DNA of 64,000 nucleotides from Candidatus Enterousia sp. (GTDB lineage Bacteria; Pseudomonadota; Alphaproteobacteria; Rs-D84): the NCBI GenBank assembly GCA_045634865.1, contig JAZRBB010000002.1, positions 197,162 to 261,161 on the forward strand. Direction: 5' to 3'. A model generated the notes under the pieces. The model made no database searches and was not told the DNA's origin. It saw only the letters and a list, made by a program, of their open reading frames with translations. Of the stretch, positions 5,109 to 62,450 are shown one piece after another (position 1 is the stretch's first letter; the number at the start of each line of letters is the position of its first letter). Made by a program: the position numbers and the translations under genes.

Positions 5109-6425
5109 ATGATTACAAAAGATAAAATCAAAGATTTACATTATTCTGTAAACGGCAAAATCGCCGCAGATGATTTGCAAAAAATTGCTGATGAGGTTTT
5201 AACAGAATTTGGTAAAACCGCAAAAATGGCAGGTTTCCGTCAGGGACATATTCCATTATCTGTATTGCGTCAAAAATACAATGCTTCCGCCTATGGCGAA
5301 GCCGTTGATAAAGCAATGAACAATGATTTGAATACTTATATTGCCGACAAAAAAATTCGCTTGGCCGGTCAACCAAAAGTTGATTTGAGTGGTTGGGAAA
5401 TCGGTAAAGATGTCGAATATTCTATGGAATTTGATATTTTGCCAACTTTGCCAGAAATCGATTTATCTAAAATTACCGTCACTAAAAAAGTCGCAAAACT
5501 GGATGAAAAGGAAGTCGATACGGCTTTGGAAAACATTCGTAAATCACGCAGTGTTGCTGAAAAGCAAGACGAAAAATACAAGGCACAAAATGGCGACGTT
5601 GCTGTGATTGATTTCAAGGGTTTTATGGACGGTGTTGCGTTCGAAGGTGGCGAAGCCAAAAAGCATCATTTGATTTTGGGTTCTGGTGCTTTCATTCCAG
5701 GTTTCGAAGACCAAGTTATTGGTCACAAAGCAGGCGATAAATTCGATGTAAACGTAAAGTTTCCAAAAGATTATCATGCCTCAAACTTGGCAGGCAAAGA
5801 TGCAAAATTCGAGATTGAATTACATGAAGTTCGCAAACATATTTTGCCAGAGATGAATGACGAATTGGCTAAACAAGTTGGTCAAGAATCTGTGGAAAAA
5901 CTGAAAGAACATATTCGTGAAATCATTTCTGGCCAATATACAGAAGCCGCTCAACGCGATATGCGCAATGAATTGCTGGACGTGTTGGCTGATAAAGTTA
6001 AAATGGATTTGCCTGAAACTTTGGTTGAACAAGAATACAATATGGCAAAACAAGAACATGATCACCAGCACGAACACTGTGAACACAAAGACGAAAAATG
6101 CAAAGATTGCAAGTGGGACGAAAAGCAAGAACGCAAAGACGCAGAACGTCGTGTTAAATTGGGCTTGATTTTGGCAGAGTGGGGCACACAAAACAAAGTT
6201 GAAGTGACCCGCGATGATTTGCAACAGGCAATCTGGGCAGAGGCTTCCCGTTATCCAGATCCAAAACAGATTTTCGAGTTCTATAACAAAAACCAAAACG
6301 CAGTTGCTATGTTGCGTGGTATGTTATTCGAAAGAAAGGCTTTGGACGAAATGCTGAAACAAGTAAATCAGAAAGAAAAATCTGTTCCAGCAGATGAATT
6401 GTTCAAGCAAGCATCTGTTAGATAA
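5109..6425 (+). CDS. tig: Trigger factor (ribosome-associated PPIase chaperone)
   Basis: MITKDKIKDLHYS...GFRQGHIPLSVLRQKY matches the trigger factor N-domain, followed by an FKBP-type middle domain. RBS AAAGGA sits 7 nt before the ATG at 5109. The listed ORF start at 5073 is probably too far upstream. Confidence 0.9.
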   Translation: MITKDKIKDLHYSVNGKIAADDLQKIADEVLTEFGKTAKMAGFRQGHIPLSVLRQKYNASAYGEAVDKAMNNDLNTYIADKKIRLAGQPKVDLSGWEIGKDVEYSMEFDILPTLPEIDLSKITVTKKVAKLDEKEVDTALENIRKSRSVAEKQDEKYKAQNGDVAVIDFKGFMDGVAFEGGEAKKHHLILGSGAFIPGFEDQVIGHKAGDKFDVNVKFPKDYHASNLAGKDAKFEIELHEVRKHILPEMNDELAKQVGQESVEKLKEHIREIISGQYTEAAQRDMRNELLDVLADKVKMDLPETLVEQEYNMAKQEHDHQHEHCEHKDEKCKDCKWDEKQERKDAERRVKLGLILAEWGTQNKVEVTRDDLQQAIWAEASRYPDPKQIFEFYNKNQNAVAMLRGMLFERKALDEMLKQVNQKEKSVPADELFKQASVR

Positions 6426-6430
6426 TTTAC

Positions 6431-6456
6431 ACCGCCCAATCGGGCGGTTTTTTCTT
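6431..6456 (+). terminator. Rho-independent terminator after tig
   Basis: Hairpin caccgcccaatcgggcggtttttt. Confidence 0.75.
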
Positions 6457-6599
6457 AGATTTTACTTGATTTTTGTAATTTTTACATATATAATTGCCTG
6501 GATTTCATGGGTGGGCATGATTTCAATCCGAATAACCCCACAAGACCTCGTCTTTACAAAACTACAATATGACGATGGCAAGCTTTGTTGAAAATTCTT

Positions 6600-8288
6600 A
6601 TGAAAGATTTATCCAAAGATTTATTTAATCCTGTATCTGGCGAAGATTTCGTCCAAATGTTTGATAAAAACTATGGTGCCCAGGAAACTTTGCAAGGATA
6701 CGCTACAAAAGGAACAGTCAAAGATATTCGTGGCGATTTTGCTATGGTTGATGTTGGCTTGAAATCCGAAGGTCGCATTCCATTAAAGGAATTCGGCGCA
6801 TCTGTCCCATCTGTGGGTGATATTATCGACGTTTTCGTTGAACGCTATGAATCCCGCGAAGGAACAGCAGTATTATCTTATACCAAGGCTCGTGCTGAAA
6901 AAGCATGGAAAGATTTGGAAAAAACTGTTGCAGAAGGTATCGATCCAGAAGGAACCATTATCGATGTTGTTCGTGGTGGTTATACTGTGGATATCAACGG
7001 TGTATTCGCATTTATGCCATCTTCCCAGGTTGATCATAAACCTGTGCGTGATGCAAAATCTTTGATTGGCTTGAAAGACAAATTCCGCGTTCTGAAAATG
7101 GATGCTTTGCGCACAAACGCTATTGTATCTCGTCGCGCAATCCAGGCTGATACTATCGCAGCACAACAGCAAGAAGCAATGAAAAACATTTCTTTGGGCG
7201 CTGTGGTCGAAGGTACAGTCAAAAACATCACAGACTATGGTGTATTTGTTGATTTGGGCGGTATTGATGGTTTGTTGCATGTGACAGATTTGTCTTGGAA
7301 ACGCATCAATCATCCACGTGAATTGGTTCATGTCGGTGAAAAAATCAAAGTGAAAGTTATTCAATTTGATCCAGAATCTCATCGTATTTCGTTGGGTGCA
7401 AAACAATTGGAAGAAGACCCTTGGGAAACAGCTTCCAAGGCTTTCAATATTGGCGATACAGTGACTGGCAAAGTATCATCTTTGACAGATTACGGTGCAT
7501 TTATTGATTTGGGCAATAATATCGAAGGTTTGGTCCATATGTCTGAATTGTCCTGGACAAACAAAAATATTCACCCAAGCAAAGTTTTGCAAAATGGTCA
7601 AGAAATCAATGTTGTTGTTTTGGATATCGACCAAGAAAAACGTCGTATTTCTTTGGGCTATAAACAACTGCAACCAAATCCTTGGAAAGATTTTGCAGAA
7701 TCTCACAAGGTGGGCGATGTTATTACTGGTCCAATTAAAAACACAACTGAATTCGGTCTGTTTGTCGCATTGACACCAGATTTAGACGGTATGATTCACA
7801 TTTCTGACTTGTCCTGGAACAAATTGGACGAAGAAGAATTAAAGAAATTTGTTCGTGGCCAAGAAGTCACAGCAAAAATCTTGGACATTAATCCAGAAAA
7901 AGAACGCATTACTTTGGGTATCAAACAATTGACTGAAAGTGCTGAAAATAACAACACTTCTATCAAGAAAGGTGCCGTTGTATGCGGAACAGTTTCTGAA
8001 ATCACACCTGATGAATTGATTCTGGCTTTGCCAGGTGATGTTCGTGGAACAATTCGTCGTACAGATTTGTCACGCGAAAAAGCTGAACAAGACACATCTA
8101 AATACAGCGTTGGCGATTCAGTAGAAGCATCTGTTGTTTCTGTTGATGGCAACAATGTAAAACTGTCTATTCGTGCATTACAAGTGACACTGGAAAAGCA
8201 GGCTGTAAAAGAATTTGCTAATGAAGCAGATTCTGGTTCTGTTTTAGGTGACATTTTAGGTGCTGCGATTGAAAACAGCAAAAAATAA
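6600..8288 (+). CDS. rpsA: 30S ribosomal protein S1 (six S1 domains)
   Basis: Repeated S1-domain signatures (GxV..I..G.FVD...GLLH.S....). ~560 aa. The ATG at 6600 (MKDLSKDLF...) is preferred over the TTG at 6585. Confidence 0.93.
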   Translation: MKDLSKDLFNPVSGEDFVQMFDKNYGAQETLQGYATKGTVKDIRGDFAMVDVGLKSEGRIPLKEFGASVPSVGDIIDVFVERYESREGTAVLSYTKARAEKAWKDLEKTVAEGIDPEGTIIDVVRGGYTVDINGVFAFMPSSQVDHKPVRDAKSLIGLKDKFRVLKMDALRTNAIVSRRAIQADTIAAQQQEAMKNISLGAVVEGTVKNITDYGVFVDLGGIDGLLHVTDLSWKRINHPRELVHVGEKIKVKVIQFDPESHRISLGAKQLEEDPWETASKAFNIGDTVTGKVSSLTDYGAFIDLGNNIEGLVHMSELSWTNKNIHPSKVLQNGQEINVVVLDIDQEKRRISLGYKQLQPNPWKDFAESHKVGDVITGPIKNTTEFGLFVALTPDLDGMIHISDLSWNKLDEEELKKFVRGQEVTAKILDINPEKERITLGIKQLTESAENNNTSIKKGAVVCGTVSEITPDELILALPGDVRGTIRRTDLSREKAEQDTSKYSVGDSVEASVVSVDGNNVKLSIRALQVTLEKQAVKEFANEADSGSVLGDILGAAIENSKK

Positions 8289-8307
8289 TAATTTATAGAC
8301 ATAAATT

Positions 8308-8340
8308 ATCCAATAAAGTCCAACTTTTTGTTGGACTTTT
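8308..8340 (+). terminator. Rho-independent terminator after rpsA
   Basis: Hairpin aaagtccaacTTTTTgttggactttttt. Confidence 0.75.
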
Positions 8341-8387
8341 TTATATTTATGTTAAAATTTATCAGGAAAATTACAAAAGGATGAAAT

Positions 8388-9032
8388 ATGGAAAAAGCAA
8401 AAAATAAAATTATTGTTTTGATGGGCGGTCAAGGTGCAGGCAAGGGCACACACGCAAAAAATTTAGTTGCACAGAAAGGGTTTAAATACATAGAAGTTGG
8501 CGCTATTTTGCGCGATTTACCACCTGAATCACCTACAAAACAAATTATGGCACGTGGCGAATTAGTTCCAGATTCAGAATTATTTCCAATTATCAGCAAA
8601 GCAATAGAAGCATGTGGCAAATCTGACATACTTCTTGATGGCTTTCCACGCAATGTTGAACAAGCCAAATGGTTGGTTAAACAATATGCCTCTGATAAAT
8701 CTCCTTATGACATTCACGTGTTGCATCTAAGTCTGCCTGAAAAAGTCATGATTCAACGTATCGCGAATCGGGTTAAAGAAGGCGGTGGTCGTGCAGACGA
8801 TGCGGATTCAGCAGTTGTCCAGAAACGTCTGGATGGGTTCAAGAAAGAAACATTACCTGCAATCGAGTTCTTGAAAAAATCAAACGGAATATATTTTTAT
8901 GCTGTTGACGTCAGCCCAGAAGACTTTACAACAAATTTTCTTAGCGTATGCAATGCACTGGGTATAGACAACATAGATAAAAATAAATTACAAGTAAATG
9001 TAGCCAATTTGCATTTATCAAACAATCGTTAA
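8388..9032 (+). CDS. adk: Adenylate kinase
   Basis: P-loop GGQGAGKGT, NMP-binding LLDGFPRNVEQA, short LID GGRADDADS. RBS AAAGGA upstream. Confidence 0.75.
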   Translation: MEKAKNKIIVLMGGQGAGKGTHAKNLVAQKGFKYIEVGAILRDLPPESPTKQIMARGELVPDSELFPIISKAIEACGKSDILLDGFPRNVEQAKWLVKQYASDKSPYDIHVLHLSLPEKVMIQRIANRVKEGGGRADDADSAVVQKRLDGFKKETLPAIEFLKKSNGIYFYAVDVSPEDFTTNFLSVCNALGIDNIDKNKLQVNVANLHLSNNR

Positions 9033-11523: not shown

Positions 11524-12144
11524 TTATTTTTTCTTTGGTGCTGTAAATTGGTACGCTTGACGACAATGCTCATAACAATACGGCTTGCCAGCAAACACTG
11601 TTTCGCCACAGAAATGAAAATTATCAGAATCTGGATCGCCAATTGGCCAACGACATTGATTTGGTTTCAAGTTCGCCATCTGTAAAGCATGCTGAATCAA
11701 CAACTCATGCAAAGCCAAATCTTTCTTGGTCTTTTTAGAAGCGGTTTTTATCACAGGATTTTCAACAACCAAGGTCTTTTTATCTGCTTTATCTGCTTTG
11801 GGCGCCTTTTTTGTTTCAACTACTTTCTTAACTGGTTTTACAACAGATTTTTCAAGCGGTGCTTTTTTACCTTTCTTGACAACCTTCTTCAATACATCTT
11901 TCAGACTGTTTTTCTTAGCAACAACCTTTTTAGAAGTCTTTGTTTCTTTTACTTCTTTTTTCGACTTGGCAGATTTTTTATCTGTTGTATCAACAGCCTT
12001 GGAATTCCAACCCAAACGATTCAACTTGCCAATAACGGCATTTTTGGATACTTCCAATTTTTTACCAATTTCAGACGCAGACAACCCCTTGCCAACCAAC
12101 GCCTTTAATTTTTTCAGCATATTGCTGTCCCAACCCTTGCTCAT
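11524..12144 (-). CDS. gcrA: GcrA cell-cycle regulator
   Basis: N-terminus MSKGWDSNMLKKLKALVGKGLSASEIGKKLEVSKNAVIGKLNRLGW and C-terminus CRWPIGDPDSDNFHFCGETVFAGKPYCYEHCRQAYQ are typical of alphaproteobacterial GcrA. Confidence 0.85.
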   Translation of the reverse strand: MSKGWDSNMLKKLKALVGKGLSASEIGKKLEVSKNAVIGKLNRLGWNSKAVDTTDKKSAKSKKEVKETKTSKKVVAKKNSLKDVLKKVVKKGKKAPLEKSVVKPVKKVVETKKAPKADKADKKTLVVENPVIKTASKKTKKDLALHELLIQHALQMANLKPNQCRWPIGDPDSDNFHFCGETVFAGKPYCYEHCRQAYQFTAPKKK

Positions 12145-29443: not shown

Positions 29444-29995
29444 TTATATTTTATTTGCGACTTTCTTTGCAACCTTGGTCACATTTAGAACTTTGCTTTT
29501 CAGATTTTTCAATCCTTTGGCCAAATCAGTCTCTTCTGCTGGCCCTATTTTTTCAGGTTTTACCGCAGAACAACAAAACGGACATTTCTTTGCTAACTTA
29601 CTGATTGATTGCTGGCAATACGGACACGCACGTGTTGTCACAGGCGCTTTGCTGCGCGCAGAATTCACAACCTTTACAAAAATAAATATCGCAACCATTG
29701 TTATAATAAAACTGATAACAGTATTCAGAAACGTCCCAATGTTCAATGTAGTTGCACCCGCAGCCTGAGCAGCAGCAATCGTTGTGTAATGCGCCCCTGC
29801 TTCACCACCACCAAGCACATAAAACCATTGTGAAAAATCAACATTACCCACCAAAAGCCCCACAGGTGGCATAATAACATCTTTGACCAAAGAATTAACA
29901 ACACTGGTCATCACAGACCCAACGATGATACCGACAGCCATATCAATCGCACTGCCCTTGTTAATAAATACCTTGAATTCTTTAACTATTTTCAT
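29444..29995 (-). CDS. mscL: Large-conductance mechanosensitive channel MscL with a C-terminal Cys4 zinc-ribbon extension
   Basis: The first ~115 aa align to MscL (MKIVKEFKVFINKGSAIDMAVGIIVGS...IMPPVGLL...). The C-terminal ~65 aa contain CPYCQQSISKLAKKCPFCC. Confidence 0.85.
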   Translation of the reverse strand: MKIVKEFKVFINKGSAIDMAVGIIVGSVMTSVVNSLVKDVIMPPVGLLVGNVDFSQWFYVLGGGEAGAHYTTIAAAQAAGATTLNIGTFLNTVISFIITMVAIFIFVKVVNSARSKAPVTTRACPYCQQSISKLAKKCPFCCSAVKPEKIGPAEETDLAKGLKNLKSKVLNVTKVAKKVANKI

Positions 29996-30557
29996 TTTTG
30001 TTTTCTCCTTGTTTCTTTACGTGGTTTTCTATTGCACACAACACCTTGTTCAGTGTTTTGTGAATATTCTCGTCTTTGGTTTCAACCATCATGTCTGCCA
30101 AAGCATAAATATCATAACGTTCTTTTATCAACTGAGCCAAAATTTGACGACTGTCTGTGTTTAATAACTGTGGACGGGTATGACGAAAATTTGTCCTTTT
30201 TACAAGGAGTTCTAGGTCAGCTTTTAACCAAATTGTTAACGTGTTGTCCAAAACCATTTTACGCACTGTATCGGTTATAAACGCCCCCTCACCCGTAGAG
30301 ATAACCTTTACCAACGGTGGTGTTTCAAGCAATCTTTCGATAACTTTTTCTTCTACACGTCTGAACTCTTTTTCGCCATACAAAGAAAAAATATCAACCA
30401 CGCTACAACCTGCGGCCTTTTCAATTTCTTTATCAGAATCAACAAATGGAATACCTAAATAACGCGCCAAAGCACGACCTATACTGGTCTTGCCTGCACC
30501 CATCAAGCCAACCATAACGATTGGTTTATCTATATCGATTTGTCTTTTTATTCTCAT
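29982..30557 (-). CDS. aroK: Shikimate kinase
   Basis: Walker A IVMVGLMGAGKTSIGRALARYLGIPFVDSD. ~190 aa. Confidence 0.85.
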   Translation of the reverse strand: MRIKRQIDIDKPIVMVGLMGAGKTSIGRALARYLGIPFVDSDKEIEKAAGCSVVDIFSLYGEKEFRRVEEKVIERLLETPPLVKVISTGEGAFITDTVRKMVLDNTLTIWLKADLELLVKRTNFRHTRPQLLNTDSRQILAQLIKERYDIYALADMMVETKDENIHKTLNKVLCAIENHVKKQGENKNENS

Positions 30558-39267: not shown

Positions 39268-39696
39268 ATGCTAAAAATATGGACAGACGGAAGTTGTTTA
39301 GGTAACCCAGGCCCAGGCGGATGGGGCTTTGTAGCCACAGACGGAATACATACCGCACAGCGTTCTGGTGGCGAAAAAGACACAACGAACAACAAAATGG
39401 AATTGACTGCGGTGATTCGGGCTTTGCGTGCCGCACGCAAACACAATGAATTGGAAATTCATACAGACAGTCAATATGTTAAAAACGGTATGCAATCTTG
39501 GATAAAAAATTGGAAGAAAAACAATTGGAAAACCGCAGACAAAAAACCAGTTAAAAATCAAGAATTATGGCAGGAATTGGACGAATTAGCATCCAAAATA
39601 AAAATTCATTGGGTTTGGGTCAAGGGACACGCCGGCGAAGAGTTTAATGAAATGGTTGATACATTGGCGCGAACCGCCGCCGAATCGTTTAAGTAA
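39268..39696 (+). CDS. rnhA: Ribonuclease HI
   Basis: MLKIWTDGSCLGNPGPGGWGFV...TNNKMELTAVIRAL...TDSQYV is the RNase H fold signature. Confidence 0.9.
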   Translation: MLKIWTDGSCLGNPGPGGWGFVATDGIHTAQRSGGEKDTTNNKMELTAVIRALRAARKHNELEIHTDSQYVKNGMQSWIKNWKKNNWKTADKKPVKNQELWQELDELASKIKIHWVWVKGHAGEEFNEMVDTLARTAAESFK

Positions 39697-39699
39697 AAA

Positions 39700-39730
39700 T
39701 GAAACCCTGAATTTTTCAGGGTTTTATTTT
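39700..39730. terminator. Bidirectional terminator after rnhA
   Basis: aaaccctgaatttttcagggtttt hairpin. Confidence 0.7.
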
Positions 39731-40229
39731 ATTTTCTATATTTATTATTTTTTTGCTTGCCAGGTAATAACGATATAATCGTTGCAAAGGCAAGGAAATA
39801 CCAAGGTGCTAGATCTGTAAACAGAGTTCCCGCTAACCATAAAACCAAAACAGGTATCCATACCCAATTTCCAGGAAGCCCCGCATCATGCAAACGACGT
39901 TCTAACAGAGCCATACATGGTATAAATGTGCCAACAATCCATATAACTCTGACCCAATTTAGCATCTGCCACAAAATCAAAGCGACAGAATCGGATACAA
40001 AATGCCATGTCACCAAACCCATATCTACCTGAACAATCATCAAATGCACCAAGAACACAAACAAAATTGCAAAAAAACATTCGCCACGTTGGGCAGTACC
40101 TTTGAAATTCGCATAATTTTTCCAAAAATTTGTGATTGCAGACCAGACACCAACTGTTTTTTGTTTTTGTATCTTAGATTTTGTTTTATTTTTATTTACA
40201 ACCATAATTCTCTCCCTTGACCTAAACAA
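39729..40229 (-). CDS. DUF805-family inner membrane protein
   Basis: Transmembrane helices and an RRLHDAGLPGNWVW motif. Confidence 0.55.
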   Translation of the reverse strand: MFRSRERIMVVNKNKTKSKIQKQKTVGVWSAITNFWKNYANFKGTAQRGECFFAILFVFLVHLMIVQVDMGLVTWHFVSDSVALILWQMLNWVRVIWIVGTFIPCMALLERRLHDAGLPGNWVWIPVLVLWLAGTLFTDLAPWYFLAFATIISLLPGKQKNNKYRK

Positions 40230-40404
40230 CGGGAATTATATCATAAATTTAACAAAAAGGAAATTTCTTTATCTTTGTCTTACATCTGCAACCAAGGTTC
40301 CAATGTCGTTTGGGGTAAATGTTCCACGAACACGAACCGGGATATTATGTTTTTGTGCGATCATAATAATCACGATAAACTAAACACTCCGAATTTTTCG
40401 GGGT

Positions 40405-40878
40405 TTATTTTGTTATGACATTGGCTTCTTTTTGTTTCTTTGCTGCTAAATTATTATTAATACGATTGTTATAAAGAAAACTATGAAGCATACCACGAAT
40501 TTTGTTTGTACTATAAATTGCAAAATAAAAAACATCACTACCTTGTACAGACTGTTTTTTTAAATTTATATTCTTAACATTATCTAATAAATACGACACT
40601 ATATATTCTTGATCATTTGCTACAGCATACATCAATGCTGTCCATCCATTATTGTTCTGTATATTGAAATCTGCATCATGTTCATAGCAATATTTAATTA
40701 AAGCTTTATCTCCACACTCGGCAGCATACATCGCCATTGTGCTTCCATTCTTATCTCGTGCATTTATATCCGATAAACTCATCGCAAAATCTACCCTTCT
40801 ATTGGCGCAAACACTACCTGCACCGTAAAATAATGGCACAAAACTAAGTGGCAAACAATTGTTTTTCTGTTTTGTCAT
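40405..40878 (-). CDS. Ankyrin-repeat protein (157 aa, ~3 repeats)
   Basis: NGSTMAMYAAECGDKALIKYCYEHDADFNIQNNNGWTALMYAVANDQEYIVSYLL follows the ANK consensus. Confidence 0.75.
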   Translation of the reverse strand: MTKQKNNCLPLSFVPLFYGAGSVCANRRVDFAMSLSDINARDKNGSTMAMYAAECGDKALIKYCYEHDADFNIQNNNGWTALMYAVANDQEYIVSYLLDNVKNINLKKQSVQGSDVFYFAIYSTNKIRGMLHSFLYNNRINNNLAAKKQKEANVITK

Positions 40879-40904
40879 TTTTATAATCCTTTTTTATTTT
40901 TATA

Positions 40905-41444
40905 TTATCTTACAAGATTTATCTCTTCTGTTTTTTTGTTTAACATTTCAACCAATTTAAATGGATATTTTCCTGTATTAACTGGCCAAATTTGATGTCC
41001 TTGCTTATTTATCACACAGTCTTTTTGGGTCAGTTCTTTCATATAAACAACAGAAACAGGTTGTCCCCACCCCCTTCGTAAATCGAACACAAAAGGTACT
41101 GCTTCTGTATTGTTTGGTAAATTTGCGTAATGCCAATCAAAACCTTCATAATTCTTGGTCATATACTTATCAACATCCTGTTTATACATCAAAGAATCCA
41201 TTAAATAAAAATCAAATTCGTCTGCTGTATAATCACACAACTTAAGATAATCACCAGACGCGACTGACACATCAGCATTATAAAGTTCAACAACACGAGC
41301 CACAGTTATAGGGTCGCTTTGGCTCATAAACTTTTTTGCCACAAGATCAAAAAAAGATGATATCGAATCAAATTTGATAATGTCAGGGGTAGATAACCAG
41401 TGTTTACCACGAATTTCATATCTAACCATTGATTTAATGTTCAC
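40905..41444 (-). CDS. Hypothetical protein (179 aa)
   Basis: ORF lying between the aspartokinase-like and ankyrin genes on the same strand. No motif recognised. Confidence 0.45.
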   Translation of the reverse strand: MNIKSMVRYEIRGKHWLSTPDIIKFDSISSFFDLVAKKFMSQSDPITVARVVELYNADVSVASGDYLKLCDYTADEFDFYLMDSLMYKQDVDKYMTKNYEGFDWHYANLPNNTEAVPFVFDLRRGWGQPVSVVYMKELTQKDCVINKQGHQIWPVNTGKYPFKLVEMLNKKTEEINLVR

Positions 41445-41503
41445 TTTTACAATCCTTTTTTATTCTGCCGAGAATTGTACACCAAACAAAACAATTGTCA
41501 AGA

Positions 41504-42238
41504 TTATTTTTGCCTTGACTTTGCGACCAAGGTTCCAAAATCTTCGGGTGAAAATGTTCCGCGAACACGAATTGGTATATTATGCTGACGCGCGGTCATA
41601 ACGCTGCGTGGATGCAATACTTTGGCGCCATTATTCGCCATTTTCAGCATATCATCATAAGATACAAAATCTAATTTCTTGGCATCTTTAACAACATTTG
41701 GGTCTGCATCATAAACACCATCAACATCGGTATAAATATCGCAATAATCAGCACCAATTGCCGCAGCAATCGCAACTGCAGATGTATCTGAACCTTCGCG
41801 TCCCAATGTTGTAATATCCTTGTTGTATGTTATGCCCTGAAAACCAGTAATAACAGGAATCGTGCCTTTTGACCAGTCATACCAAATTGGCGCGGTTATA
41901 TATTTGATTTTTGCATCACCAAAGTTTTCATCAGTCCATATTCCCATTTGAAACGCATTATAACTGCAAGCTTTACACCCAATCGCATTTAATGCCATCG
42001 AAACCAAAGCAACAGAAGTCATTTCGCCTGTTGCCAACAATGCATCTAATTCACGTAAATTTGGTTTATCTGTAATTTGATGCGCCAAGTTCGTCAAAGC
42101 ATTTGTTGTTTTTCCCATCGCAGAAACAACCACAGCAACCTTTGCTGTTTGGCGCTGCGTAGCGATAATATTCGCAACATTTTTTATTTTATCGATATCA
42201 GCGACCGAGGTTCCGCCGAATTTCATAACTATTTTCAT
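41504..42238 (-). CDS. Aspartokinase-like amino-acid-kinase family protein lacking ACT regulatory domains
   Basis: MKIVMKFGGTSVAD...AVVVSAMGKTTNAL is the aspartokinase N-terminal signature. The protein ends at ...IPIRVRGTFSPEDFGTLV, roughly where ACT domains normally begin. Confidence 0.65.
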   Translation of the reverse strand: MKIVMKFGGTSVADIDKIKNVANIIATQRQTAKVAVVVSAMGKTTNALTNLAHQITDKPNLRELDALLATGEMTSVALVSMALNAIGCKACSYNAFQMGIWTDENFGDAKIKYITAPIWYDWSKGTIPVITGFQGITYNKDITTLGREGSDTSAVAIAAAIGADYCDIYTDVDGVYDADPNVVKDAKKLDFVSYDDMLKMANNGAKVLHPRSVMTARQHNIPIRVRGTFSPEDFGTLVAKSRQK

Positions 42239-42267
42239 TACCATTGCCCTTTGACACAATAAACAAC

Positions 42268-42927
42268 CTAGCCCCTGAACCCCATGGCAACGATAAACAT
42301 TTCCACAGAATCTTTTCGTGAGGCTGGCGGTTTAATATGATGAACTGTCTCAAAATGTTCTTTGATTTGTTTCAGCAAATCGTTCGTCGTCCCCCCCGTA
42401 AAAGATTTAGCAATAAACGTCCCCCCGTTTTTCAATGCGCGAATTGCAAAATCCAGCGCATATTCCAACAAAACCATTTGACGAATATGGTCTGTTTTTT
42501 TATGTCCAACTGTATTTGGTGCCATATCAGACATAACAACATCTGCGGTACCTTTGCCCGCTTCGTCGTGCGATAAATTTAATTTATCTTCCAACCAATT
42601 TAACGCTTCATCAGTTGTAAAATCACCCTGATAAAATTCGACATTATTGATTGGTTTGATTTCCAATAAATCCATCGCAAATATTTTAGAATTCGGATAT
42701 TTACGCGCAACATATTGCGACCAAGAACCCGGCGCAGCACCTAAATCAACAACAACCTGACCATTACGAAAGAAATGATATTTTTCATCCATTTCGATAA
42801 TCTTGAAAGCCGCGCGTGCACGATAGCCTTCTTTTTGCGCCTTGGCAACGTACGGATCAGATGCTTGACGTTGAATCCAAGCCACAGACGATTTATGCCC
42901 AGCAATCTTTTTGTTCAGGATTTTCAT
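42268..42927 (-). CDS. rlmE: 23S rRNA (uridine-2'-O)-methyltransferase RlmE (FtsJ)
   Basis: VVVDLGAAPGSWSQYV motif I and a K-D-K-E catalytic context. 219 aa. Confidence 0.85.
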   Translation of the reverse strand: MKILNKKIAGHKSSVAWIQRQASDPYVAKAQKEGYRARAAFKIIEMDEKYHFFRNGQVVVDLGAAPGSWSQYVARKYPNSKIFAMDLLEIKPINNVEFYQGDFTTDEALNWLEDKLNLSHDEAGKGTADVVMSDMAPNTVGHKKTDHIRQMVLLEYALDFAIRALKNGGTFIAKSFTGGTTNDLLKQIKEHFETVHHIKPPASRKDSVEMFIVAMGFRG

Positions 42928-42936
42928 GATATAAAA

Positions 42937-43422
42937 CTAAGCCTGACCACCGTTTTTCAATTTTTCCATTACGGCTTCCATGCCACCCATTTTCTGAATC
43001 ATAGCCATCTGCTGTTTCATTTTGGTATATTGCTTGATTATGTGTTCTACTTCACGAACTGTGCAACCTGCTGTTTCAGCAATACGCGCCTTGGCATTTG
43101 CGAATATCTTTTCTGGATCTGCACGTTCAACCGCAGTCATCGCTTCCAATATCTTAATTTGCGCATCAACGCTGCCATCTGCTATTTTTTCCTTCATAGC
43201 ATTCACAGCATCTTTCATACCAGGAACCATTTTCAACAGACCGCTGAAACTGCTCATCTTTTTAATCTGCTTCAATTGCGCCAACATATCGTTCATATCA
43301 AATTGACCAGCCATCATACGTTGTGCAGTTTCTTTCATACCAGACGGCATTTTAGCCGCTTCTTGTTCCAAATCAGCATTTTCTTGTTCTGCTAATTTTT
43401 TCTTTTTACCAAATCCAAACAT
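42937..43422 (-). CDS. Standalone signal-recognition-particle Ffh M-domain-like protein
   Basis: Aligns by eye to the Ffh M domain: FDMNDMLAQLKQIKKMSSFSGLLKMVPGM...ERADPEKIF...KARIAETAGCTVREVEHIIKQY..MKQQMAMIQKMGGM. No NG domain upstream. Confidence 0.6.
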   Translation of the reverse strand: MFGFGKKKKLAEQENADLEQEAAKMPSGMKETAQRMMAGQFDMNDMLAQLKQIKKMSSFSGLLKMVPGMKDAVNAMKEKIADGSVDAQIKILEAMTAVERADPEKIFANAKARIAETAGCTVREVEHIIKQYTKMKQQMAMIQKMGGMEAVMEKLKNGGQA

Positions 43423-43444
43423 ATATATCCCCTTTGAATTGAAT

Positions 43445-43795
43445 TTATTTTTGTGCTTGTTTCATCAACTGTTGCATTTTATAACGTTCAACGAAGTTTA
43501 ATGATTTATATATTGCACCCGCTTCTACTTCATCCATTAGCATCAAAGCAGTCTGTAAATCACCATTTTTGATAATAACGTTATGAATAAATCTTGCGTG
43601 CGCCTGAACTTCTGGATATGTAATAAATTTTTTTTGTTCTTGCGCATTATAACAATCAAGCATTTGTAAAGATTTAATAACTGATGTTGCCTCTGGTTCG
43701 TCCATTGTTCCCAAAGCTGCCCGTAAATCACCATTTCTGATAATGGCATCACGAACAATTTTTGCATGTTTTAAATATTCTGCATGTGTAATCAT
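43445..43795 (-). CDS. Hypothetical protein with an internal ~55-aa tandem duplication
   Basis: The halves ITHAEYLKHAKIVRDAIIRNGDLRAALGTMDE... and ITYPEVQAHARFIHNVIIKNGDLQTALMLMDE... are clearly homologous. Confidence 0.45.
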   Translation of the reverse strand: MITHAEYLKHAKIVRDAIIRNGDLRAALGTMDEPEATSVIKSLQMLDCYNAQEQKKFITYPEVQAHARFIHNVIIKNGDLQTALMLMDEVEAGAIYKSLNFVERYKMQQLMKQAQK

Positions 43796-60025: not shown

Positions 60026-60529
60026 CTAGCGGTTTATTATTCCACCCTTTTGTAACACTATTCGCAAAGGTTTTTTAATATAACGCGCATCATAGTCGTA
60101 AATATTTCTTAAAATTTCCGCTGCTTTACCATATGCTTCGACAGCTTTCTTTTCGTTTTTCTTTAATGTACTAAAACTCCAATCTTGTCCGCAATCTTCT
60201 TCAACAGCATACAAATGTCCAATTTTACCAGGCATATAAAAGAATTTTGCAAAATCAGAAAAGTAATACGATTTAAGATGTTTACCATGATTATACAAGC
60301 TGACTTTTTCAGGAAATACTTTGATTACTTGTTGTCCCACAATTTTATAGTTCGCCCTTGCCACCTTAAAAGAAATACCATGAAAACGACCATCTTTGTC
60401 CAATTCAGAAATTGAACCACCAGAAGTTACTTCATAAAACTGCTTGTCGCCATCATCCGCTAAGAAATAACGTGTTTCATACCAATAACCATCGGTCGAA
60501 AAACTCTTTTGTGCCATTTTATATTGCAT
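60026..60529 (-). CDS. Hypothetical protein (167 aa)
   Basis: ORF with no recognised motif. Confidence 0.45.
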   Translation of the reverse strand: MQYKMAQKSFSTDGYWYETRYFLADDGDKQFYEVTSGGSISELDKDGRFHGISFKVARANYKIVGQQVIKVFPEKVSLYNHGKHLKSYYFSDFAKFFYMPGKIGHLYAVEEDCGQDWSFSTLKKNEKKAVEAYGKAAEILRNIYDYDARYIKKPLRIVLQKGGIINR

Positions 60530-60551
60530 TTGTTAATACCTTTCTTGTTTA

Positions 60552-61310
60552 TTATAAAATCACATTTCCATCAATACGTGCATCACTTGGAATTGGACCA
60601 AATGAAGAACGTGGGGAAACATAAATATTACCCTGGACAGTAAATTTACCACAGAAACTTAATTTTTCAACATTGCGAACAAATAAATTGCCACGAATCT
60701 TTGCATCACAAGGCAAAGTATATTTACGCATATTTTGGATAAACAAATTACCATCAATCTTTACACCATTTGATAAAACTGGCGCAGATGGGTACATATC
60801 AACAATAACATCACCCATTAATCTTTGCTTTGGCAAAACTTGTGCCGGCAAAGAAATTTCCTTTACAACCACAGGCTTTTTAACACCGACTGTTTTAATT
60901 TGTGGTTTGATACCTGTTTCGGCACTTACTTTCAATGGCAAGGCTGTATTTATTTTGTACTTACGTTTAACAACTTTGCGATTATCCTGCTTTGCTGAAT
61001 TTGTTTTGGCAACAACAACACTTTTATTTGTTTTTGCAACCGTATCCACAGAATTATTATCATATCTGGTAAAATTGTGAATCAGACCTGTAAATAAAAC
61101 GATTATAGCGACCAACAAAGTCAAATTCACCATACCAACGATATCAATACTCTTTACCCAATTCCAGATTGCTTTGCATATACGGCAAATAAAACGCCAT
61201 GCTTTTTTACACAATTCCCAAGGGAACGAAACAACGCGTTTCAACCATTGTTTAATATTGCGCTTGCGCGTATTACGTGCAGCAGTTTTCATTTTTTGTG
61301 TTTTATTCAT
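60552..61310 (-). CDS. Hypothetical membrane-anchored protein with C-terminal ~20-aa [KR]I[DRQ]GN[LIV][FY][IV] repeats
   Basis: Basic N-terminus, one transmembrane helix, Lys/Val-rich linker, then four repeats (KIDGNLFIQ / KIRGNLFVR / VQGNIYVS / RIDGNVIL). Confidence 0.45.
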   Translation of the reverse strand: MNKTQKMKTAARNTRKRNIKQWLKRVVSFPWELCKKAWRFICRICKAIWNWVKSIDIVGMVNLTLLVAIIVLFTGLIHNFTRYDNNSVDTVAKTNKSVVVAKTNSAKQDNRKVVKRKYKINTALPLKVSAETGIKPQIKTVGVKKPVVVKEISLPAQVLPKQRLMGDVIVDMYPSAPVLSNGVKIDGNLFIQNMRKYTLPCDAKIRGNLFVRNVEKLSFCGKFTVQGNIYVSPRSSFGPIPSDARIDGNVIL

Positions 61311-61409
61311 ATCAAATCCTTTTGTTATGTTTGCATATAATATAGACTATTTATAACATTTGTCAAGAGATTTGTCAAAAAAAATATTAGAGCGCTATAA
61401 AAAAACGCC

Positions 61410-62450
61410 CTATTTTTTAGATTTTTGGGAAAAACGTTCAATAAAAGCATTCAGTTTGTATTCGTCTTCCAATTCCTGATCTTTCATCATCCCCTTAACA
61501 TCTTCAAGTGTAGCAGCAGCATTCTTTAATTTTATAATACCTTCTTTGAACCCCAAAACAAACATTTGACGCCGTTCTTCAAGATAATCTTCGATAGATT
61601 TTTTATCTATTTTGTCTATATCGTGTGCAAGTTGTGCCTGAAAAGTTCGCAATATATACATTTGCCCGGCACTTAAATTATGCTTTCTGTCACGATCAAA
61701 AGCATTTAAAATGTCCCTGTAAAAACCTGGAAAATATTTATAAAAAGAATCTAAAAATTGTTTAATCGATTGTCTAGAATATTCTTCATTGTAATATATT
61801 CCCACAGGTAATTCAATATTGTATGGATTTTTGACCGAAACAATTTCTGCAGATTTTTCTGGACGCAAAAAAGGCTTAGCCACTTCTACAATCTTATTTA
61901 ATAATTGCGGGGTTAAATCGTAAAAATATATAGTTATCGGATCATGACGACTTTGCCAATGATACAAACCTGACGGTGTTTTATATTGAGCAATATGCTT
62001 TCCCTTATCTTCGTTTACAATGTCATCCAAATGTTCTATCAACCCACTAGCCATATACACATTCAAAGACAAACGCGCCTTTAATGCCTTGTTTCGTTCG
62101 CTCTGAGGTTGATATTCACGATAATACCAGCCGTTTGTTGCCCCATCAGGCAAAGTATCAGCGTTAGTTAATAACTTAACAGATTTATATGGTGCCCTGA
62201 TTCTACTGAAACGTTTGTCTGCGAACTCTCTCACAGAAGTGGTATTGTTTTTTATTCCCGCTTTGGTATAATCAGTCAAAGGATATTCATCACCATCTTT
62301 GACATGCCGTAATTTTTCATATTTTTTATTCAAAACTGTAAATACATTTACATCGTCACCCTTTTCCCAATTTACATCACCAGCAAACTGTTTTAACCAA
62401 TCTTTGAATAACATAAAAACTACCTCTGTATCATAGGATGATTTTAGCAT
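61410..62450 (-). CDS. Hypothetical protein (346 aa)
   Basis: ORF with no recognised motif. Adjacent to the tRNA-Arg locus. Confidence 0.45.
   Translation of the reverse strand: MLKSSYDTEVVFMLFKDWLKQFAGDVNWEKGDDVNVFTVLNKKYEKLRHVKDGDEYPLTDYTKAGIKNNTTSVREFADKRFSRIRAPYKSVKLLTNADTLPDGATNGWYYREYQPQSERNKALKARLSLNVYMASGLIEHLDDIVNEDKGKHIAQYKTPSGLYHWQSRHDPITIYFYDLTPQLLNKIVEVAKPFLRPEKSAEIVSVKNPYNIELPVGIYYNEEYSRQSIKQFLDSFYKYFPGFYRDILNAFDRDRKHNLSAGQMYILRTFQAQLAHDIDKIDKKSIEDYLEERRQMFVLGFKEGIIKLKNAAATLEDVKGMMKDQELEDEYKLNAFIERFSQKSKK

What the first reader, a model, noticed from the sequence alone, without database searches (positions are those of the whole stretch)
40405..42238. Operon-like trio: an aspartokinase catalytic domain lacking ACT domains, an unknown 179-aa protein, and an ankyrin-repeat protein
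The kinase has the unmistakable MKFGGTSVAD aspartokinase start but ends right where the regulatory ACT domains should begin, and no ACT ORF follows. Downstream on the same strand, with short gaps, are a 179-aa unknown protein and a 3-repeat ankyrin protein. This may be a deregulated kinase recruited into a novel pathway, or the ankyrin and unknown proteins may act as protein-level regulators.
Basis: partly seen in the sequence, partly recalled or inferred. Interest (0 to 1): 0.5.

Follow-up and report, generated by a model that had tools for sequence, protein, structure and literature searches.

The report
ACT-less aspartokinase plus unrelated inserted gene pair
A gut alphaproteobacterium carries a real aspartate kinase that has permanently lost its feedback-sensing domains, while the two genes after it are a separately acquired, fast-evolving cassette and not partners of the kinase.

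Summary
All three genes exist, on the minus strand: aspartokinase (AK) 41504-42238, unknown protein (UNK) 40905-41429, ankyrin protein (ANK) 40405-40878.

The kinase is a true LysC-type aspartokinase. It ends at the catalytic/ACT boundary (C. glutamicum LysC residues 4-245). The ACT-less form is fixed in a clade of uncultured gut and rumen Alphaproteobacteria: 42 protein clusters, almost all 237-250 aa, dN/dS 0.06-0.18, catalytic residues intact. One clade-specific change stands out, GRGGSD to GREGSD. An ACT profile that hit every control locus found nothing in the window or in relatives' loci.

The trio is not a functional unit:
- Five related species have the same short kinase without UNK/ANK.
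- The pair is bracketed by a 98-nt duplication of the kinase's 3' end.
- It has its own promoter-like site and terminator-like hairpin.
- Its GC is lower (31-34% vs 40%).
- It evolves fast (ANK dN/dS about 1).

UNK belongs to a small orphan family. Its predicted structure is confident (pLDDT 92.6) but matches no solved structure.

Best reading: a constitutively unregulated aspartokinase in a metabolically reduced gut bacterium, next to a recombining accessory cassette. Enzyme activity, the downstream pathway and the cassette's role were not tested.

The parts
41504..42238 (-). Aspartokinase catalytic domain only (244 aa), with no ACT domains. A conserved housekeeping-type gene.
   Evidence: Pfam AA_kinase 7e-53. 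NCBIfam aspartate kinase models aligned to positions 2-244 of 407. C. glutamicum LysC residues 4-245. 42 orthologous clusters, almost all 237-250 aa. dN/dS 0.06-0.18. Catalytic residues conserved, with the clade-specific E148.
41504..41601 (-). Direct-repeat copy 1: the last 98 nt of the kinase gene now in use. It is of a different sequence type from the rest of the gene.
   Evidence: the repeat finder family D1. 90% identical to the L001 3' end but only 74% to L004, whereas the block just upstream is 99% identical to L004.
41474..41501 (-). Promoter-like site (TTGACA, 16-nt spacer, TACAAT; 11 of 12 matches) immediately after the kinase stop and upstream of UNK.
   Evidence: Best-scoring site in the scan of 39600-43600. 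This is a consensus match only. The sequence is conserved in L004.
40905..41429 (-). UNK: a 174-aa orphan-family protein (179 aa if the GTG at 41444 is used).
   Evidence: No hit in Pfam, NCBIfam, PHROGs or PADLOC. 43 relatives among 1.84 billion representatives. AF2 model pLDDT 92.6 with no fold match in PDB or BFVD.
40405..40878 (-). ANK: a 157-aa protein with about three ankyrin repeats. Its N- and C-termini are conserved and its middle is fast-evolving.
   Evidence: Pfam Ank_2 8e-16. Alignment A2. dN/dS 1.0-1.1, and dS 0.175 against about 0.7 for neighbouring genes. GC 31%.
40386..40404 (.). Terminator-like hairpin just after the ANK stop. It closes the cassette.
   Evidence: Detected on both strands. 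It resembles the hairpin at 39704-39729 (family D3, 81%).
40269..40366 (-). Direct-repeat copy 2: a relic of the kinase gene's original 3' end, displaced downstream of the cassette.
   Evidence: 76% identical to copy 1. Translates to IMIAQKHNIPVRVRGTFTPNDIGTLVADVRQR* and ends at the same stop position. 95% identical to the 3' end of the L004 kinase gene.
41441..41464 (-). 24-nt leader with ribosome-binding region upstream of UNK. It is repeated upstream of ANK at 40875-40898 (92% identical).
   Evidence: the repeat finder family D4.
42268..42927 (-). RlmE (FtsJ) methyltransferase, 29 nt upstream of the kinase. It is the conserved upstream neighbour and is probably co-transcribed.
   Evidence: Pfam FtsJ 5.5e-58. 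Same position in L001, L008, L009 and L083. Gap measured.
39729..40229 (-). DUF805 membrane protein lying between the relic and the RNase H gene. It is not at this position in any related locus examined.
   Evidence: Pfam DUF805 5.8e-14. Absent here in L001-L010 and L083-L085.

Best explanation
Two independent things lie side by side.

(A) The kinase.
- It is a functional, naturally ACT-less aspartokinase of the LysC (C. glutamicum / Synechocystis) subfamily, fixed in a clade of uncultured gut and rumen Alphaproteobacteria.
- Inference: it still phosphorylates aspartate, because all catalytic and substrate-binding residues are kept. Having no effector-binding domains, it would run without lysine or threonine feedback.
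- Inference: it may still dimerise, because this subfamily associates through its catalytic domains.
- Inference, not tested: in a metabolically reduced, nutrient-dependent gut bacterium the enzyme mainly feeds aspartate semialdehyde towards diaminopimelate for the cell wall. Inhibition by abundant external lysine or threonine would then be useless or harmful.

(B) UNK and ANK.
- They form a self-contained accessory cassette with a promoter-like site, two genes and a terminator-like hairpin. The cassette was inserted or exchanged by recombination at the 3' end of a kinase gene that was already short.
- In this genome the incoming DNA brought its own copy of the last 98 nt of the kinase gene and pushed the original 98 nt downstream.
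- UNK is a small, non-enzyme-like protein of a clade-restricted orphan family. ANK is its ankyrin-repeat partner at this locus.
- The pair's rapid divergence and its tandem duplication in other strains suggest a role in interaction with other cells or with parasites. That role is inferred, not shown.
For: Kinase:
- Identity and truncation point.
- 42 clusters at 67-97% identity are almost all 237-250 aa with AA_kinase only. The next-best hits are full-length enzymes of 404-423 aa at 51-58% identity.
- Orthologues in eight GTDB species of gut or rumen Alphaproteobacteria all stop at the same place.
- dN/dS is 0.06-0.18, similar to the neighbours RlmE, UvrA and transketolase.
- K6, G8, G9, S11, S39, T45, E72, S150, D151, D171 and D179 are 100% conserved and R147 is 98% conserved.
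- No ACT relic or ORF was found, and the positive control worked.
- In L008 and L009 the convergent RNase H gene starts 2 nt after the kinase stop, which leaves no room for ACT domains.
- No riboswitch is present.
- Class II and III aspartokinases oligomerise through their catalytic domains (PMC4142519).
- Rumen RF32 and Rs-D84 Alphaproteobacteria are described as metabolically reduced (PMC13196213). UBA1254, the source of L007, is placed in family CAG-239.

Cassette:
- Present only in the closest relatives, and duplicated in L005 and L083-L085.
- 98-nt direct repeat and relic.
- Mosaic breakpoints at 98 nt before the stop and at the stop codon.
- Promoter-like and terminator-like sites.
- GC is 31-34% against 40% for the kinase.
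- dN/dS is 0.4-1.1.
- UNK paralogues occur at other loci without a kinase or an ankyrin gene.
- The near-invariant UNK residues are Y, P, Q, W and T. No acid, base or nucleophile residue is among them.
Against: - No enzymatic activity was measured.
- The clade-wide Gly-to-Glu change in the otherwise invariant GRGGSD loop (E148; G in 76 of 76 full-length relatives) lies next to residues that, from my recollection of published aspartokinase structures, bind the substrate. It could alter activity or specificity.
- I could not inspect the rest of the genome. Still open are the presence of asd and the dap genes, of a second canonical aspartokinase, and of a separately encoded ACT subunit.
- The taxonomic placement (RF32/CAG-239) rests on one table entry for one relative.
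- The cassette has no recombinase, so how it moved is unknown.
- The relic occurs only in this genome. It documents one recombination event, not necessarily how the cassette first arrived.
- ANK dN/dS near 1 is also compatible with relaxed constraint.
Confidence: 0.65

Rival explanations
1. The three genes form one operon in which UNK and/or ANK replace the ACT domains as protein-level regulators of the kinase, or the three together form a new pathway.
For: Same strand and short gaps. UNK and ANK follow the kinase in the window and in L001, L004, L005 and L083-L085. No terminator is predicted between the kinase and UNK.
Against: - Five related species keep the same ACT-less kinase without the pair.
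- The pair is flanked by a duplication of the kinase's 3' end and has its own promoter-like site.
- The pair is only 26-67% identical between strains whose kinases are 89-93% identical.
- UNK paralogues occur away from any kinase.
Confidence: 0.06
2. The short kinase is a decaying gene fragment, a lysC truncated by insertion of the cassette, with no function.
For: A cassette does sit at the gene's 3' end, and a fragment of the gene lies downstream. In unrelated Clostridia MAGs a similarly short aspartokinase ORF is followed by a serine recombinase gene, which suggests interruption there.
Against: - The relic is only the last 98 nt and ends at the same stop, so the gene was already short before the event.
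- Relatives without the cassette have the same length.
- No ACT remnant was found anywhere.
- dN/dS is 0.06-0.18 across dS up to 1.7.
- Catalytic residues are invariant.
Confidence: 0.03
3. It is a split enzyme. A regulatory ACT subunit is encoded elsewhere in the genome and associates in trans, so feedback control is retained.
For: Known aspartokinases of this subfamily use a separate beta subunit made only of ACT domains (PMC4142519). NCBIfam holds a 'putative aspartate kinase subunit' pair model, TIGR02078. Only 64 kb of the genome, plus about 12 kb in each relative, could be searched.
Against: - No ACT-like sequence was found in the window or in 13 related loci.
- In the known alpha2-beta2 enzymes the beta subunit pairs with the ACT domains of the alpha subunit, and those are absent here (PMC4142519).
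- The kinase shows clade-specific surface changes at positions otherwise conserved (E199K, E214M and others), which fits permanent loss of a partner domain.
Confidence: 0.12
4. It is a neofunctionalised kinase. After losing the ACT domains and acquiring Glu in the GRGGSD loop, the enzyme phosphorylates a substrate other than free aspartate.
For: E148 is present in 98% of the ACT-less clade and in none of 76 full-length relatives. Several other otherwise invariant positions are also changed (Q5M, D46N, T177D).
Against: T45, E72, R147, S150 and D151, the residues corresponding (from my recollection of published aspartokinase structures) to the aspartate-binding set, are conserved at 98-100%. Overall identity to bona fide aspartokinases is 51-58%. 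No neighbouring gene suggests another pathway.
Confidence: 0.1

Closest known systems
C. glutamicum LysC (PDB 3AAW, 3AB2, 3AB4), a class II alpha2-beta2 aspartokinase
   Same: Best solved-structure match (E 4e-61), colinear over residues 4-245, which is the whole catalytic domain. The Lys, Gly-Gly, Thr, Glu, Arg and Ser-Asp motifs are shared. The catalytic domains of this enzyme associate with each other (PMC4142519).
   Different: LysC has two ACT domains on the alpha chain plus a beta subunit made of ACT domains, and is inhibited by Lys plus Thr. The window protein stops at about residue 247 of LysC, has no beta ORF, and carries GREGSD in place of GRGGSD.
Synechocystis aspartokinase (PDB 3L76), class III
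   Same: Strong match over the catalytic domain (E 1e-57). Its dimerisation involves only the catalytic domain (PMC4142519), which sets a precedent for an ACT-less dimer.
   Different: It has four ACT domains per chain. The window protein has none.
Engineered or mutant feedback-resistant aspartokinases (lysC-fbr) and the ectoine-linked Ask_Ect isoenzyme
   Same: The functional outcome I infer is the same: aspartokinase activity freed from end-product inhibition. Ask_Ect is described as not under threonine feedback (PMC7824335). The lysC-fbr alleles are cited from my own knowledge.
   Different: As far as I know, those enzymes keep their ACT domains and escape control through point changes or altered effector specificity. 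Here the whole regulatory region is absent, and this state is fixed in a natural clade.
Genomic islets that integrate into the 3' end of a gene and carry a replacement 3' end
   Same: The cassette is bracketed by a direct repeat that consists of the target gene's 3' end. The upstream copy keeps the gene intact and the downstream copy is the displaced original.
   Different: No integrase or recombinase is present. The element is only about 1.2 kb. The repeat was found in one genome only. Homologous or illegitimate recombination between strains explains it equally well.
Ankyrin-repeat effector proteins of host-associated bacteria (for example Legionella AnkX, AnkY and AnkH)
   Same: Ankyrin repeats, and weak NCBIfam hits to these models over the repeat region (E 1e-6 to 8e-4). 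Fast evolution and low GC are typical of accessory host-interaction genes.
   Different: The scores (18-28 bits) are far below the models' cut-offs of 500-1400 bits. The resemblance is to the repeat only. No secretion signal or secretion system was identified.

Membership tests
Aspartate kinase (EC 2.7.2.4), LysC-type, within the amino-acid kinase superfamily | Amino-acid kinase fold domain (PF00696) covering the catalytic region | tested here: met
   Pfam AA_kinase E 7e-53, profile positions 1-233 of 234.
Aspartate kinase (EC 2.7.2.4), LysC-type, within the amino-acid kinase superfamily | Specific similarity to aspartokinases rather than to other amino-acid kinases | tested here: met
   TIGR00657 asp_kinases scores 289 bits against a cut-off of 208.7. 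The 24 best NCBIfam models are all aspartokinases. The best other model is pyrH, at 46 bits against 243.9. Identity to full-length aspartokinases is 51-58%. Full-length equivalog cut-offs are missed only because half of each model has no counterpart.
Aspartate kinase (EC 2.7.2.4), LysC-type, within the amino-acid kinase superfamily | Conserved catalytic and substrate-binding motifs: KFGG, SAMGxTT, TGE, LGRGGSD, DVDGVYxADP | tested here: inconclusive
   All motifs are present and 98-100% conserved in the clade, except that the first Gly after the Arg of GRGGSD is Glu (E148) in 98% of ACT-less members and Gly in 100% of 76 full-length relatives. The effect of this change is unknown.
Aspartate kinase (EC 2.7.2.4), LysC-type, within the amino-acid kinase superfamily | C-terminal pair of ACT regulatory domains (the canonical architecture) | tested here: not met
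   The protein ends at model position 244 of 407. The ACT profile found nothing in the window or in L001-L013, although it detected every control.
Aspartate kinase (EC 2.7.2.4), LysC-type, within the amino-acid kinase superfamily | ATP-dependent phosphorylation of L-aspartate | not testable with these tools
   This needs an enzyme assay or genetic complementation.
   Only pyrH appears, at E 4.7e-12 and 46 bits, far below its cut-off and far below the aspartokinase models.
Alpha2-beta2 aspartokinase with a separate ACT-only beta subunit | A beta-subunit coding sequence, either an in-frame internal start in lysC or an adjacent ACT ORF | tested here: not met
   No ACT-like ORF in any frame of the 64-kb window, or within about 6 kb of the kinase in 13 related loci. 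The rest of the genome was not searched.
Ankyrin-repeat proteins | Tandem repeats of about 33 residues matching the Ank profiles | tested here: met
   Ank_2 8e-16, Ank_4 2e-13 and Ank 2e-10 over residues 33-107 of ANK.
Site-specific integrative element at the 3' end of a gene | Direct repeats flanking the insert that derive from the target gene's 3' end | tested here: met
   The 98-nt repeats at 41504-41601 and 40269-40366 are 76% identical. The relic is 95% identical to a relative's 3' end.
Site-specific integrative element at the 3' end of a gene | An element-encoded integrase or recombinase | tested here: not met
   The only ORFs between the repeats are UNK and ANK, and neither has a recombinase domain. 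One distant UNK-family member (P0146) has a sub-threshold Phage_int_SAM_4 hit at 24.2 bits against a cut-off of 27.
Known anti-phage defence or toxin-immunity systems | Match of either cassette protein to a curated defence or toxin model | tested here: not met
   PADLOC gives nothing for UNK, and ANK matches only through its ankyrin repeats (PDC-M72A 1.4e-11, Ankyrin 1.8e-6). PHROGs gives only weak hits to families of unknown function.

The most novel reading that the evidence does not exclude
UNK-ANK is a miniature mobile or exchangeable two-gene cassette.
- It targets the 3' end of the aspartokinase gene and carries its own replacement 3' end.
- It encodes a protein with a previously unseen fold plus a diversifying ankyrin partner.
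- Together these would mediate interaction of a metabolically dependent gut alphaproteobacterium with its partner cells or its parasites, as an effector-adaptor or toxin-immunity-like pair.

A second, less likely novel reading is that the ACT-less, E148-bearing kinase has acquired a new substrate.
Probability: 0.25. Interest if true: 0.6.

Novelty: new variant of a known kind. Interest (0 to 1): 0.4.

Why it matters
Aspartokinase is a textbook allosteric enzyme, and the ACT domain is partly named after it. A whole natural clade has discarded the regulatory half while keeping the catalytic half under strong selection.

This gives a natural experiment on three questions:
- What the ACT domains are needed for.
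- How a catalytic-domain-only aspartokinase folds and oligomerises.
- How metabolic control is simplified in reduced, nutrient-dependent gut bacteria.

It may also be a ready-made feedback-insensitive enzyme for amino-acid production strains.

The neighbouring cassette matters for a different reason. It shows strain-level gene exchange at a defined site in an uncultured gut lineage. It also contributes an orphan protein family with a confident predicted structure that resembles nothing solved so far.

For annotation, these genes are correctly called aspartate kinase, but regulated behaviour should not be assumed for them.

Tried and rejected
- **Exact-sequence look-ups.** The window's UNK (179 aa and 174 aa) returned no contig and the window kinase is not in the protein collection. 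The source contig could not be retrieved.
- **UNK structure, shallow alignment.** A 3-sequence alignment gave a useless model (pLDDT 46.7). Only the 44-sequence alignment worked.
- **Literature.** Five searches for natural or engineered ACT-less aspartokinases found nothing relevant. The aspartokinase 'cohesion group' review is not held.
- **Wrong taxon at first.** I suspected order Rs-D84 / Ca. Enterousia. A table placing the related genus UBA1254 in family CAG-239 points to RF32 instead. Supplement searches for MAG identifiers or pathway genes found nothing.
- **Cluster look-up** gave no names or accessions.
- **Lysine riboswitch as a substitute for allostery.** Rejected: there is no Rfam hit, and only 29 nt lie upstream of the kinase start.
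- **UNK paralogue elsewhere in the window.** None was found.
- **Signal peptide or lipobox on ANK.** Judged by eye from alignment A2, the N-terminus is not consistently hydrophobic across homologues. This was not tested formally.
Full report
**1. What is there**

- The kinase (AK) runs 42238 to 41504. It is 244 aa from the ATG of MKIVMKFGG, with an AAGGG motif upstream, and starts 29 nt after the stop of an RlmE/FtsJ methyltransferase gene.
- UNK runs 41429 (or the GTG at 41444) to 40905.
- ANK runs 40878 to 40405.

The wider minus-strand order is RodZ, UvrA, a 116-aa orphan, an SRP54 M-domain-only protein, RlmE, AK, UNK, ANK, DUF805. Then comes RNase H on the other strand, followed by transketolase and YgjP.

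**2. The kinase is a real aspartokinase without ACT domains**

- Pfam gives AA_kinase (E 7e-53).
- The 24 best NCBIfam models are all aspartokinases. The top one aligns to positions 2-244 of 407, and TIGR00657 is above its cut-off.
- The best non-aspartokinase model (UMP kinase) scores 46 bits against a cut-off of 244.
- Against solved structures the protein is colinear with residues 4-245 of C. glutamicum LysC (E 4e-61). It ends at the boundary between the catalytic and regulatory regions.
- An ACT profile built from 76 full-length relatives found nothing in six-frame translations of the 64-kb window or of 13 related loci. The same profile recovered C. glutamicum LysC and all 69 control loci with distant aspartokinases.
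- No riboswitch or other Rfam family lies nearby.

**3. The short form is a fixed, selected state of a clade**

- The homology search returned 42 clusters at 67-97% identity, almost all 237-250 aa and carrying only the kinase domain. The next hits are full-length enzymes of 404-423 aa at 51-58% identity, many from gut Gastranaerophilales and relatives.
- Genome hits are eight species of uncultured Alphaproteobacteria from rumen, horse faeces, yak and buffalo.
- All orthologues end at the same GTLVA-plus-five-residue position. Pairwise dN/dS is 0.06-0.18 over dS up to 1.7, like neighbouring housekeeping genes.
- In L008 and L009 the convergent RNase H gene begins 2 nt after the kinase stop.
- Catalytic motifs are invariant. 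The exception is a clade-specific Gly-to-Glu change in GRGGSD (E148: 98% of the short clade, 0 of 76 full-length relatives). Several other clade-specific changes occur at otherwise conserved positions.
- The pseudogene reading is therefore rejected. A change in activity or specificity cannot be excluded.

**4. The trio is not a unit**

- tblastn of UNK and ANK against related loci shows the pair only in the closest relatives: L001/L003, L004, L005, a fragment in L006, and L083-L085. L002 and L007-L010 carry the same short kinase without it.
- In L005 and L083-L085 the pair is tandemly duplicated.
- Between genomes whose kinases are 89-93% identical, UNK is 28-65% and ANK 44-67% identical. dN/dS is 0.42-0.68 for UNK and 1.0-1.1 for ANK. 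ANK dS against L084 is only 0.175, compared with about 0.7 for flanking genes.
- GC is 34% for UNK and 31% for ANK, against 40% for the kinase and 39-43% for the surrounding housekeeping genes (DUF805 is 36%).
- The best promoter-like site in the region (TTGACA, 16 nt, TACAAT) lies directly after the kinase stop, and a hairpin follows ANK.

**5. A recombination scar**

- Reading the minus strand downstream of ANK showed a second copy of the end of the kinase gene.
- The repeat finder confirmed a 98-nt direct repeat, 41504-41601 and 40269-40366, at 76% identity.
- The downstream copy translates to IMIAQKHNIPVRVRGTFTPNDIGTLVADVRQR* and stops at the same position.
- The window's kinase gene is about 99% identical to that of L004 up to 98 nt before the stop. 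Over the last 98 nt it switches to an L001-like sequence (90% to L001, 74% to L004). After the stop it returns to near-identity with L004.
- The downstream relic is 95% identical to the L004 3' end.
- So the relic is the displaced original 3' end. The incoming DNA carried a replacement 3' end, and the gene was already ACT-less when this happened.
- The relic is unique to this genome among those examined, and no recombinase is present. I therefore treat this as evidence of cassette exchange at a hot spot, not as proof of a site-specific element.

**6. What UNK and ANK are**

- UNK has no hit in Pfam, NCBIfam, PHROGs or PADLOC.
- A profile search of 1.84 billion representatives found only 43 relatives of 61-367 aa. 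None has a Pfam domain above threshold.
- With 44 sequences AlphaFold2 gave a confident beta-rich model (pLDDT 92.6, pTM 0.85).
- The near-invariant residues are Tyr, Pro, Gln, Trp and Thr, which points to a binding or structural role and not catalysis.
- Paralogues lie near tyrS and between queH and fabD in related genomes, without an ankyrin gene or a kinase.
- ANK is a three-repeat ankyrin protein with conserved termini and a variable middle.
- The cassette's function remains inferred.

**7. Context and mechanism**

- One relative (UBA1254) is listed under GTDB family CAG-239. Rumen RF32 and Rs-D84 Alphaproteobacteria are described as lacking ammonia assimilation and amino-acid or peptide transport genes, and as possibly symbiotic (PMC13196213).
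- Aspartokinases of the C. glutamicum and Synechocystis classes associate through their catalytic domains (PMC4142519), so a dimer without ACT domains is plausible.
- I infer a constitutively active, feedback-insensitive aspartokinase, most likely retained to supply aspartate semialdehyde for diaminopimelate.
- The pathway genes, a possible trans-acting ACT subunit and a second aspartokinase could not be checked, because only the window and short related loci were accessible.

**8. Novelty and verdict**

Five literature searches found no description of a natural ACT-less aspartokinase. This is absence of evidence within the held library only. Databases already label these proteins aspartate kinase.

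I rate the kinase a new variant of a known kind. The 'operon trio' interpretation is not supported. Overall interest is moderate.

Noticed in passing
window 42937-43422 (-): A 161-aa protein that is only the M (signal-peptide-binding) domain of Ffh/SRP54, with no NG GTPase domain (Pfam SRP_SPB 4e-23). It is conserved at the same position in L001, L002, L008-L010 and L083, with dN/dS 0.06-0.08. This is a second 'domain-only' housekeeping protein two genes upstream of the ACT-less kinase. Whether a full ffh or a separate NG gene exists elsewhere is unknown.
   Followed up: partly
L011, L012, L013 (Clostridia/Bacillota MAGs), about 6001-8650: A 246-aa aspartokinase catalytic-domain ORF (51-52% identical) ends without ACT domains. 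About 300 nt downstream in L011 and L012 there is a large serine recombinase ORF of about 520 aa. In L013 a similar recombinase-like ORF lies upstream instead. Spore-coat-like genes are nearby, judged by reading. This looks like lysC interrupted by an integrated element. No ACT sequence lies within about 6 kb.
   Followed up: partly
L090 4001-4576 (UBA1185 contig DBYN01000004.1), L086-L088 5001-5633, L089 413-1009, L093 446-1386: UNK-family paralogues sit at two other conserved sites: next to tyrS-tsf-rpsB, and between queH and fabD (a tandem pair in L093). None has an ankyrin gene beside it. The family is multi-copy and is inserted between housekeeping genes.
   Followed up: partly
window 51729-52712 (-), 50264-51631 (-), 60026-62450 (-): A second, larger ankyrin-like protein (327 aa, judged by reading only) and several orphan ORFs with no Pfam hit lie in low-GC patches (33-34% against a window mean of 38%). 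These may be further accessory islets.
   Followed up: no
window 43445-43795 (-): A 116-aa orphan between uvrA and the SRP M-domain gene appears, by eye, to be an internal duplication of a unit of about 55 residues (…RNGDLRAALGTMDEPEA… / …KNGDLQTALMLMDEVEA…). It has no family hit. A 108-aa ORF with no Pfam hit occupies the same position in L001, and none does in L083.
   Followed up: no
window 29982-30557 (-): A shikimate kinase gene (Pfam SKI 9e-41) is present, although rumen members of the candidate orders are described as metabolically reduced. It may be another isolated remnant of an amino-acid pathway, like the aspartokinase.
   Followed up: no
window 39704-39729 and 40386-40411: The hairpin after ANK is 81% identical to the bidirectional terminator between RNase H and DUF805. 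The two may share an origin or belong to a repeated terminator family.
   Followed up: no
P0146 (333 aa, UNK-family member from the representative library): The UNK domain (residues 218-332) is fused to an N-terminal region with a sub-threshold hit to the phage-integrase SAM-like domain (24.2 bits, cut-off 27). This is a weak hint of a link to mobile elements.
   Followed up: partly
one search hit list (P0043-P0120): The closest full-length relatives of this alphaproteobacterial kinase are from gut Gastranaerophilales/Melainabacteria and Margulisiibacteriota (55-58% identity), not from Alphaproteobacteria. This suggests horizontal acquisition. No phylogeny was made.
   Followed up: no
window 11524-12144 (-): By reading, this ORF looks like the cell-cycle regulator GcrA (…GLSASEIGKKLEVSKNAVIGKLNRLGW…). 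That fits an alphaproteobacterial origin for the window. It was not tested with a profile.
   Followed up: no
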